Translations under genes and position numbers: made by a program
Shown here: positions 22,701 to 25,700 of the stretch, piece after piece
How the letters are laid out: every line of letters begins with the position of its first letter
How positions within the stretch are numbered: position 1 is the stretch's first letter
The notes under the pieces: model-generated
Databases searched by the model: none
Told to the model about the DNA's origin: nothing
Seen by the model: the letters and a program-made list of their open reading frames with translations, nothing else
Source: Schmidtea polychroa
Lineage: Eukaryota
Direction: 5' to 3'
DNA length: 60,000 bases
Assembly (NCBI GenBank): GCA_044892525.1
Contig: CM097885.1
Span: forward strand, 22,508,001 to 22,568,000

Positions 22701-25700
22701 TAGAGAATTAAATTCTGCCTATACATGGTTACACTTAAATCTCGATCAGACCTGTGAAAAGAGACATAAAAGATAAAAAACAGTAGAGTAGTAGGATGTG
22801 GGCCATCCCGGCCATGTCCCCTCCAGACCACATATACCCCCTCCCCCCCTCCCCCCCCGGGAAAAATTTTTTTTTTTTAAAATAAAAGGTCAAGGTCATT
22901 TTTTAATTTAATTTTTTGTTTTAATTAAGTGATCATTTAATTTTTCAAGGTCATATTTTAAAATTTAAATGTACAGAGTTCCCGCCAACAAATATTATTA
23001 AACGATACCTCATCTTAAAGCTCGGTCTAAGACCTTTCGATTGATCCATAGAAGGTATCATCATCATTAATATTAACAAAGTTATTAACATTTAACCAAA
23101 AATCATTTTCAAGGTCATATAATTATTAGTGGTCCAGCGGTGACCTGGTTTTCGTTTGCCCCAAAGTTATCGTTCCCATTATCCGAATTTATTATTTGAT
23201 AGCTTATTTTGAAGCTTAGTGCAAGATCTATCTACTGATGTATAAATATTATCATCATCATTATTATTGGCAAAATTATTAACGTTTTCCCGAGACCATT
23301 TTCAAGGTCATTTATTTTTCAAAATATTATAATTTCCAAGGTCATTTTTTTTTCAAGGTCGCGTGACTCATCAAGGTCATTCCCAAGGTCATTTTTTTTT
23401 CAAGGTCATTTTTTTTTCAAGGTCATTTTTTAATTTAATTTTTTGTTTTAATTAAGTGATCATTTAATTTTTCAAGGTCATATTTTAAAATTTAAATGTA
23501 CAGAGTTCCCGCCAACAAATATTATTGAACGATACCTCATTTTAAAGCTCGGTCTAAGACCTTTCGATTGATCCATGGAAGGTATCATCATCATTAATAT
23601 TAACAAAGTTATTAACATTTAACCAAAAATCATTTTCAAGGTCATATAATTATTAGTGGTCCAGCGGTGACCTGGTTTTCGTTTGCCCCAAAGTTATCGT
23701 TCCCATTATCCGAATTTATTATTGGATAGCTTATTTTGAAGCTTAGTGCAAGATCTATCTACTGATGTATAAATATTATTATTAACATTATTTTACACAC
23801 GGGGGGGGAGAGGGTATATGTGGCCTGGCGGTGACCTGGCCGGGATGGCCCACATCCTACTACTCTACTGTTTTTTATCTTTTATGTCTCTTTTCACAGG
23901 TCTGATCGAGATTTAAGTGTAACCATGTATAGGCAGAATTTAATTCTCTACAACACGGCGCAATTACAATTTCAGTTTGGTGCTTTGTGTGTAATGCACA
24001 CATGTTTTTACAATAAATTTGTATTTTTTCGCGCGGTTAACGTAATTTTCTTGGATTTTTATTCATTTAATATATAGATAAAATTTAATTTTCTATAAAA
24101 TAGCTTGATTAAAAATTATGTCTCGTATGTTGTGTGTAATACACACATGTTTTTACGATAAATTTGTATTTTTCGCGCGGTTAACGTAATTTTCTTAGGA
24201 TTTTATTCATATAATATATAGATAAAATTTAATTTTCTATAAAATGGATTGATTAGAAATTATGTATCTTGTTTTGTGTGTAATACACACATGTTTTATT
24301 ATACGTTAACGTAATTTCCTTGTATATTTATTCATATATTATAGAGATAAAATTTAATTTTCTATAAAATGGATTGATCTAGAGTTTAAAATGTTGTATT
24401 ATTTTATTACTTTGTTGCAATATTTTTATAATCTTATAACAATTTGCTTAAATATTTTACATCTGGTGAAATATTTCCGAAATATGTTATTACTTTGTTG
24501 TAATTTACTGAAAGACTTCACAATTTATTACAATATTCTTTTTTAATTTGTTGTCCGTCTTCGAAATAATGTATTGATTTGTCCCAATTAACATCATTAT
24601 TTTATTACTTTGTTGCAATATTTTTATTATTTTAGTTACAATTTGATAAATATTTTACAACTGTTGAAAATTTATCTGAAATATGTTATTACTTTGTTAC
24701 AATTTTATGAAAACGTTATTACTGTTTTGCAATTTGATGAAAAAAAATGATATTACTTTGTGAGTTCAACACATTATTTTTATTAAATTATTATGAAAAT
24801 GTTAAATAAGTCAACTTTAGCGTCAAAATGTGTTTTAAAATTTAAGTTTTAAAATACTGCAATGTAATGCATTTATTTTTCCTACCCCTTCCTTGATTTT
24901 GATTGGTCAGAATATATTTATTTTTCCTACCCCTTCCTTGATTTTGATTGGTCAGAATTTAATCATGTGTAATATATAAGCAGTAACTTTTCAAATGTTT
25001 GTCATTTAAACTTTTAATTTAACTTATATAAGTGAATAAATTTTTATTCTCTATCTAATATTAATGATTATTTTTTAGTGAACGGATGCAGTTTATATAA
25101 ATTTTGTATTGCCGAAAGTCATGAAGATGTGGAGAACTGTAAATCAGTTACATCATCATATTTCAAGATAAATGACTCTACCTTATCGGGTTACATATGT
25201 CCGGAATGTCTCATTATAACACCAGGTAGGTGGTTAATGTTTGTACGACAACACGGACACCATCTTAGAAGATTCGAAGAAACGAAGAGCAGGATGATCA
25301 CTAAAAGTAATACTCTTTCTACTATTAACAATTATTAATTTTTTATAGTACAATCGAAAATGAATACATCATACGATCCTAAGGAGATTAAAGAATATGT
25401 TACAAGTTATGTTATTTAAGTTGTTTAATATTAATTATAAATATAGTTAGACAAAACTCTGGCACCACAAAACGGAAGTCAATATTTTACGGAAATGGAG
25501 ACTCTAACATACAATTGTGTCCACGTCGGGAGTCTGACTTAAACGGTTCTCGTGTTGAATTGACAAGCGATGTATCTGCAATTAATTCTCCTGACATTGT
25601 TGTTCCAGATTGTCTCATCAAAGAAATAGAAGATCATATTCAACGAATGGGGACAGTAAAAATCCAATTTGGACTTTGTGCAGAGTTTATCAAAGAGGAT

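What the first reader, a model, noticed from the sequence alone, without database searches (positions are those of the whole stretch)
22781..23870. Palindrome centre is a mini-Polinton with the capsid element's termini, flanked by an inverted rather than direct duplication
22787-23864 starts AGTAGTAGGATGTGGGCCATCC and ends with its reverse complement, matching 39089 and 54821. Its interior is homologous to 39180-39550. Its flanks are CAGTAG and CTACTG, i.e. inverted. Established: in adenovirus protein-primed strand-displacement replication, an internal inverted repeat yields rearranged genomes in which the IR-bounded segment is bracketed by two copies of one arm. Inference: a mini-element inserted into a pPolB-bearing Polinton, and its TIRs drove the same copy-back event, deleting the other arm. 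This gives a mechanism for the origin of the palindrome and physically links the two elements.
Basis: partly seen in the sequence, partly recalled or inferred. Interest (0 to 1): 0.8.

Follow-up and report, generated by a model that had tools for sequence, protein, structure and literature searches.

The report
Palindromic Polinton with a foreign core
A 13-kb mirror-image piece of a virus-like Polinton transposon carries a DNA polymerase gene in each half and, at its centre, a 1-kb gene-less fragment with the ends of what is likely a different Polinton lineage; those captured ends likely triggered the mirror duplication before the whole unit was inserted into the host genome.

Summary
Observation confirmed, with corrections. 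22787-23864 is a gene-less 1,078-bp piece with 63-bp inverted ends; its left 461 bp are 72% identical to the left end of the capsid/integrase element at 39089-54821. The 'inverted flanks' are just the innermost bases of two 5.95-kb arms and are not shown to be a target-site duplication. Not in the finding: the whole palindrome (16833-29824) has its own, different AGTAGT ends and a direct 6-bp duplication, so it was inserted as a finished unit. Each arm holds only a pPolB gene. Trees place that pPolB and the neighbour's capsid protein in different lineages, and relatives appear to be one-piece Polintons, so the palindrome is a two-lineage chimera rather than half of a bipartite virus. Copy-back at the captured inverted ends (adenovirus inverted-repeat type) is the best mechanism (0.5) but is inferred: no genome was held, and I could show neither a free mini-element nor a progenitor. 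Unchecked scan notes report many palindromic Polinton offshoots elsewhere in this genome and in others, so folding back may not need a captured core. New variant of a known kind; interest 0.5.

The parts
16827..16832 (+). Left copy of direct 6-bp target-site duplication (GTATAT) of the whole palindrome
16833..22786 (.). Left arm; starts AGTAGTGAATAG (lineage-A terminus)
17605..21259 (-). pPolB (PF03175 with weak endonuclease VII match), left copy; predicted short introns; further upstream exon(s) likely to about 21550
21685..21865 (.). Non-coding block upstream of pPolB with a duplicated CCAAT-like 45-mer; homologous to 52855-52987
22268..22771 (.). Array of about four 125-145-bp units at the inner end of the arm
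22781..22786 (+). CAGTAG, last bases of the arm; candidate target site or junction microhomology
22787..23864 (.). Spacer: gene-less 1,078-bp piece with lineage-B Polinton ends (longest Met-ORF 46 aa)
22787..22849 (+). Left 63-bp inverted end of the spacer
22890..23265 (+). First copy of 376-bp direct duplication
23266..23416 (+). Stretch rich in AAGGTCA motifs between the two copies
23417..23792 (+). Second copy of 376-bp direct duplication
23802..23864 (-). Right 63-bp inverted end of the spacer; differs from the left at 5 of positions 29-63
23865..29824 (.). Right arm, mirror copy of the left
25392..29052 (+). pPolB, right copy
29825..29830 (+). Right copy of target-site duplication (GTATAT)
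39089..54821 (.). Neighbouring lineage-B element with direct 6-bp duplication TAGGGT (39083-39088 / 54822-54827), about 1.5-kb inverted ends, no pPolB detected
41620..42084 (-). TBP-like ORF (PF00352)
42189..42827 (+). A32-like packaging ATPase (PF04665)
43391..44446 (+). rve integrase with chromodomain
45811..47034 (+). Major capsid protein, double jelly-roll type by predicted fold
47099..47443 (+). Adenain-like protease frame (PF00770)
52855..52987 (+). Homologue of the pPolB-upstream block, with no pPolB behind it

Best explanation
The 13-kb palindrome is a polymerase-only Polinton derivative whose 1.08-kb centre carries the two ends of what is likely a second Polinton lineage, and those embedded inverted ends likely caused the polymerase arm to be copied back on itself. 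Steps: (1, inferred) a lineage-B element, already small or later cut down by deletion, entered a lineage-A Polinton 1-2 kb upstream of pPolB. (2, inferred from the adenovirus precedent) during protein-primed strand-displacement synthesis from the pPolB-side end, the displaced strand folded at the 63-bp inverted pair and synthesis switched template, giving arm-spacer-arm and losing the capsid/integrase side. (3, shown) the product has two identical lineage-A ends and sits between a direct 6-bp duplication with no integrase of its own, so (inferred) it was inserted whole by an integrase supplied in trans. (4, inferred) the 6-kb arms now serve as giant terminal repeats kept alike by fold-back, up to about base 28 of the spacer's ends.
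For: Outer AGTAGT ends and exact direct GTATAT duplication. Arms differ by 2 substitutions outside a (TA)n tract, plus a 6-bp length change and 1 substitution in it, whereas the spacer's direct repeat differs at 7 of 376 and its ends at 5 of 63: the spacer is older than the last equalising of the arms. All 5 end differences lie beyond base 28 (chance 0.046); the neighbour's own two ends differ at 5 of the first 28, so these bases are not fixed. Arm end against neighbour's end beyond AGTAGT: score 51, reached by 5 of 300 shuffles; spacer end: 213, 0 of 300. pPolB groups with the proteins of contigs of 17,960/22,064 bp (90/93), the capsid protein with that of 16,321 bp (99/99); forcing agreement is rejected (p-AU 0.005 and 0.001). 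7 of 21 pPolB-hit contigs of 10 kb or more share their exact length with a capsid-hit contig. In 4 public runs, contig depth over the spacer interior is 1.9-3.8 times that over pPolB, while the bin with the spacer's end is 0.10 and 0 of pPolB depth in 2 of 4 runs; four listed contigs 85-90% alike leave the arm at 22761-22791 with 50-150 unmatched letters (table 8). A passage in PMC2518115 states that non-terminal inverted repeats cause replication-induced rearrangement of adenovirus vectors.
Against: No free mini-element with a direct duplication and no readable progenitor were found: no genome is held, the terminus pattern has 0 hits in JGI metagenomes, and no loose end at 22787 is among the 24 rows listed (1,358 not shown). 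In the other 2 of 4 runs the terminus bin is 1.0 and 2.1 times pPolB depth, which fits the junction being common. The junction repeats five bases of the terminus (background 0.0006), more like slippage or end joining than a chance target. 63 bp at 92% is a short stem. Scan notes (unchecked) describe many palindromic Polinton offshoots in this genome, so fold-back may be a general habit. Summed contig depth is not a copy number and G/C runs can drop out.
Confidence: 0.5

Rival explanations
1. Fold-back is intrinsic to these Polintons; the spacer was picked up at the turning point by template switching or end joining to a free lineage-B end at the AGTAG repeat and never moved as an element.
For: AGTAG directly precedes AGTAGTAG (background 0.0006 per site). 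The spacer is lopsided and looks mosaic: a 12-base motif in the right end recurs (1 mismatch) in the spacer's own interior at 23138 and 23665, while the left end has the neighbour's version. Scan notes report many palindromic offshoots (unchecked).
Against: Both sides keep terminus homology beyond base 28 (30 of 35 bases), so a second, diverged end must also have been captured; two contigs of another sample (X3) leave the left end at 22814, the base where the window's right end starts to differ, which suggests an end pair that exists in other copies.
Confidence: 0.25
2. The palindrome existed first; a mini-element inserted near its centre and fold-back conversion later erased one target-site copy and the old spacer.
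For: Same end state as the best explanation; palindromic offshoots are reported as common in this genome (unchecked).
Against: Needs insertion close to the centre plus a conversion that removes all of the old spacer; nothing of an older spacer remains.
Confidence: 0.12
3. Native two-part Polinton: a polymerase segment and a capsid/integrase segment that complement each other, the spacer acting as a shared packaging or origin cassette.
For: Each element lacks what the other has; both have exact 6-bp duplications and lie 9.3 kb apart between collagen-like exons; spacer and neighbour share G at terminus base 8, the minority letter (8-15% of depth in 3 runs); the neighbour keeps the block found upstream of pPolB but no pPolB.
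Against: Outer termini do not match beyond AGTAGT, unlike bidnavirus segments (PMC8502044 passage); trees discordant; relatives appear one-piece; spacer only 72% like the neighbour; Polintons are very abundant here, so being neighbours is cheap.
Confidence: 0.08
4. Assembly or long-read fold-back artefact.
For: Arms are about 99.9% identical; no laid contig spans the stretch.
Against: Exact direct 6-bp duplication with unrelated host DNA on each side, small differences between the arms, collagen-like exons on the same strand on both sides.
Confidence: 0.03

Closest known systems
Polintons/Mavericks (polintoviruses, adintoviruses)
   Same: pPolB, (AGT)2//(ACT)2 ends, 6-bp target-site duplication; the neighbour has rve integrase, A32-like ATPase, adenain-like protease and a jelly-roll capsid (PMC8097293 section 7 and passages).
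   Different: The palindrome has two pPolB copies and nothing else; its inverted repeats are about 5.95 kb against 46-1,447 bp in intact vertebrate Mavericks; its centre holds another lineage's ends.
Adenovirus genomes rearranged through internal inverted repeats (Steinwaerder, Carlson and Lieber 1999; Carlson et al. 2002)
   Same: An inverted-repeat-bounded segment inside a protein-primed linear replicon. That such repeats cause replication-induced rearrangement is from a secondary passage (PMC2518115); that the product carries two copies of one arm is recalled, the primary papers were seen only as reference-list entries.
   Different: Natural, integrated, repeat only 63 bp and derived from another element's ends; the retained arm encodes the polymerase.
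Bidnaviruses (bipartite, PolB-encoding)
   Same: Polymerase and other functions on separate terminally repeated molecules, if the two-part reading held.
   Different: Bidnavirus segments have matching termini (PMC8502044 passage); these two elements do not. ssDNA and no integrase (ssDNA from the PMC4061559 listing; lack of integrase recalled).
C. elegans Polinton remnants (bioRxiv 2024.01.15.575659)
   Same: pPolB-end remnants with terminal repeat but no integrase at 10 loci; Polinton repeats implicated in inversions (passages).
   Different: Those are chromosomal rearrangements of host genes; the passages I saw describe no self-contained palindrome with its own target-site duplication.

Membership tests
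Autonomous Polinton/Maverick (palindrome 16833-29824) | Protein-primed family B polymerase | tested here: met
   PF03175 E 3.6e-32
Autonomous Polinton/Maverick (palindrome 16833-29824) | (AGT)2//(ACT)2 ends and 6-bp direct duplication | tested here: met
   definition in PMC8097293
Autonomous Polinton/Maverick (palindrome 16833-29824) | Integrase, ATPase, protease and capsid genes in the same element | tested here: not met
   No room or frame for them in the arm; arm matches the capsid element only in one non-coding block
Non-autonomous mini-Polinton (spacer) | Polinton-type inverted ends | tested here: met
   63 bp, 58 of 63
Non-autonomous mini-Polinton (spacer) | Direct 6-bp target-site duplication | tested here: not met
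   Flanks CAGTAG / CTACTG are inverted; loss by copy-back is an inference
Non-autonomous mini-Polinton (spacer) | Free copies at other loci | tested here: inconclusive
   No genome; 0 JGI hits; spacer-like sequence exceeds pPolB depth 1.9-3.8 times but flanks not visible
Adenovirus-type inverted-repeat rearrangement | Internal inverted pair bracketed by two copies of one arm | tested here: met
Adenovirus-type inverted-repeat rearrangement | Arises from a progenitor with two different arms during replication | not testable with these tools
   Progenitor not readable; only diverged contigs leaving the arm at 22761-22791
Bidnavirus-like bipartite genome | Matching termini on both segments | tested here: not met
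   criterion from PMC8502044
Bidnavirus-like bipartite genome | Relatives also split | tested here: not met
   8 contig-length matches between pPolB and capsid hits; indirect

The most novel reading that the evidence does not exclude
A de facto two-part Polinton assembled from two lineages: a polymerase-only palindrome that has captured the ends of a capsid/integrase-only partner and uses them as an internal origin or packaging cassette, each element supplying what the other lacks.
Probability: 0.1. Interest if true: 0.85.

Novelty: new variant of a known kind. Interest (0 to 1): 0.5.

Why it matters
How Polintons replicate has, to my recall, not been shown directly in animals. A natural arm-spacer-arm product with a datable junction, inserted whole, is the kind of by-product that strand displacement with fold-back predicts, and it can be tested on a long-read genome by computation alone. 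It also shows mixing between Polinton lineages through their ends and insertion in trans of a polymerase-only element. The value is limited because palindromic offshoots seem common in this genome and the causal role of the captured ends is not shown.

Tried and rejected
Own genome: not held. IMG/VR: no relative of the capsid protein or close pPolB; the alignment gave 12 loci at 25-34%, too distant to inform; three 17-base pattern hits showed nothing related in the part of the comparison that was printed (cut at 40 lines) and are treated as chance. JGI: terminus pattern 0 hits; 7 pPolB relatives on contigs of 1.1-3.4 kb without termini. Idea that pPolB is the last gene before the end in relatives: not supported, 3 of 3 downstream stretches hold ORFs of 99-131 aa. 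Idea that 52855-52987 is a pPolB promoter: it is homologous to the arm's block, and the arm's block matches DNA upstream of pPolB in L017 only marginally (79 against a maximum of 77 in 300 shuffles), while the capsid element's block does not (198 of 300); left open. No RNA holder listed. Capsid protein: no Pfam or PDB sequence match; identified by fold only. Folding of the centre only restates the stem. Scan notes by sequence and near place: nothing. Paper searches for a described palindromic, copy-back, segmented or bipartite Polinton gave no such description in the listings; searches for the adenovirus mechanism gave only secondary mention. Subscription papers and Repbase are not covered; no supplements were read.

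Full report
What is there. The window is AT-rich animal-type DNA with collagen-like Gly-X-Y exons on the + strand at 10781-15240, 34556-35834 and 57153-57638. Two Polinton-type insertions lie between them. The first, 16833-29824, is a palindrome: two arms of about 5,954 bp around a 1,078-bp spacer. It begins and ends AGTAGTGAATAG and lies between a direct duplication GTATAT. The arms differ by two substitutions outside a (TA)n tract and by 6 bp plus one substitution within it. Each arm holds one pPolB gene (PF03175, E 3.6e-32; endonuclease VII match below the Pfam cut-off) that homologues extend upstream across short predicted introns; with three predicted introns allowed for, the frame is open for 1,159 codons in both arms. 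No other gene is apparent. The second, 39089-54821, has ends AGTAGTAGGATG, duplication TAGGGT, a TBP-like ORF, A32-like ATPase, rve integrase, adenain-like protease and a capsid protein whose model (pLDDT 90.5) matches iridovirus, PBCV-1 and mavirus capsids (E 5e-16 to 2e-13). tblastn with the window's pPolB finds nothing in it.

The spacer. The finding's description holds. The spacer is lopsided: its first 461 bp match the left end of the capsid element at 72%; a 376-bp direct duplication follows; the right end keeps 63-72 bp of terminus. The two ends are identical for 28 bases and then differ at 5 of 35 (chance 0.046). The left end is closer to the neighbour's left end (59 of 63) than the right end is (54 of 63), and the right end carries a 12-base motif that recurs in the spacer's own interior. 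The flank CAGTAG cannot be read as a target-site duplication from this window: it is the end of the arm, and five of its bases repeat the terminus, against a background of about 0.0006 per site (noticed after the fact).

Two lineages. Beyond AGTAGT the arm's end is barely like the neighbour's (5 of 300 shuffles reach the score), while the spacer's is (0 of 300). Among the 120 listed pPolB hits (of 5,512) and 120 listed capsid hits (of 171), 7 of 21 pPolB contigs of 10 kb or more have exactly the length of one of 17 capsid contigs, and one 5,976-bp contig matches too. I take these as one-piece Polintons; this is indirect, as the contigs could not be read. In trees of these 8 pairs plus the window, two sister pairs recur in both trees, but the window's pPolB joins the 17,960/22,064 pair (90/93) and its capsid protein the 16,321 contig (99/99). 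Forcing either to follow the other is rejected (p-AU 0.005, 0.001; groups named after seeing the trees). Arm and neighbour share one non-coding block (21685-21865 and 52855-52987, 72-84%) that lies upstream of pPolB in the arm and just before the right terminal repeat in the neighbour, which suggests but does not show that the neighbour lost its polymerase.

Other copies. No genome is held. Twenty runs from 8 studies hold part of the arm and spacer; the best may be the window's source. I laid 4 of them, all contigs, on 20560-23416, one arm's inner half and the left half of the spacer. 34,303, 3,074, 5,214 and 55 contigs were laid; summed depths far above those of the single listed pieces point to a high-copy family, though the tool warns this is no copy number. 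Median depth over the spacer interior is 3.8, 2.8, 2.5 and 1.9 times that over pPolB; the bin with the spacer's end is 2.1, 1.0, 0.10 and 0 times. So spacer-like sequence also exists apart from arms, and in two runs most arms are not seen to run into this end, though dropout at G/C runs is possible; in the other two the figures would fit a common junction. Four listed diverged contigs leave the arm at 22761-22791 with 50-150 unmatched letters; a fifth stops at 22791 with only 4 left. Terminus base 8 is T in 85-92% of depth in three runs; spacer and neighbour both have G. No loose end at 22787 is listed, but 1,358 rows were hidden. Free minis and a progenitor are therefore neither shown nor excluded.

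Mechanism. Shown: chimeric anatomy as far as ends go, own ends and duplication of the palindrome, absence of integrase, relative ages of arm and spacer repeats. Inferred: capture of a lineage-B end pair, fold-back at the 63-bp stem during strand displacement, loss of the capsid side, insertion in trans. The direct outer duplication matters: a chromosomal inverted duplication would not recreate it, so the rearrangement probably preceded insertion, which fits a replicating linear form. I give this 0.5, junction capture without a mobile mini 0.25, palindrome first 0.12, a native two-part element 0.08, artefact 0.03.

What is known. PMC8097293 (section 7 and passages) gives the end motifs, 6-bp duplications and terminal repeats of 46-1,447 bp. 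PMC8502044 (passages) gives the matching-termini rule for bidnaviruses and lists a TBP-like gene in a legend. bioRxiv 2024.01.15.575659 (passages) reports pPolB-end remnants and Polinton-linked inversions in C. elegans. PMC2518115 (passage) supports inverted-repeat rearrangement in adenovirus; the primary papers were seen only as references and the two-copies-of-one-arm detail is recalled. Passages of PMC6431247, PMC3185507, PMC11131425 and PMC3597656 added nothing. Seven searches listed no description of palindromic or split Polintons. The scan's own notes report palindromic Polinton offshoots several times in this genome and in others; I could not check them, and none that I saw names a centre made of another lineage's ends.

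Verdict. A real, recently inserted, polymerase-only palindromic Polinton derivative with a foreign terminus-bounded centre. New variant of a known kind; interest 0.5.

Noticed in passing
window 39089-54821: 15.7-kb element with intact-looking capsid, ATPase, integrase and protease genes but no pPolB; about 5.8 kb after the protease holds no recognised gene and several repeats.
   Followed up: partly
window 41620-42084 (-): TBP-like ORF inside the capsid element (PF00352, E 1.4e-15); already noted many times by the scan in this genome.
   Followed up: partly
window 40480-40548, 48068-48137, 49882-49967, 51738-51829, 53003-53110, 53252-53343: A 70-110-bp motif in six copies, two inverted, scattered through the capsid element, including the inner edge of both terminal repeats.
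   Followed up: no
window 25392-26437 and 43779-43820: pPolB and integrase genes appear to hold short AT-rich GT-AG introns, one made largely of a (TA)n tract that differs in length between the arms.
   Followed up: partly
window 16866, 22886-23638, 39180: AAGGTCA motif near the ends of both lineages and clustered in the spacer (12 copies); possible protein-binding site.
   Followed up: no
window 39000-39082: The capsid element is inserted directly after an 83-bp (TA)n tract.
   Followed up: no
window 5145-6623, 8355-8726, 31739-32071, 55269-56415: Other transposon-like ORFs: an intact pogo/Tigger-type DDE_1 transposase, a SWIM-domain fragment, and two without Pfam match that look like transposase pieces (by eye).
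   Followed up: no
L006 2260-3424 / 10852-12034: A distant IMG/VR pPolB contig has an inverted repeat of 1,184 bp at 83%, one copy internal and one at the contig end.
   Followed up: no
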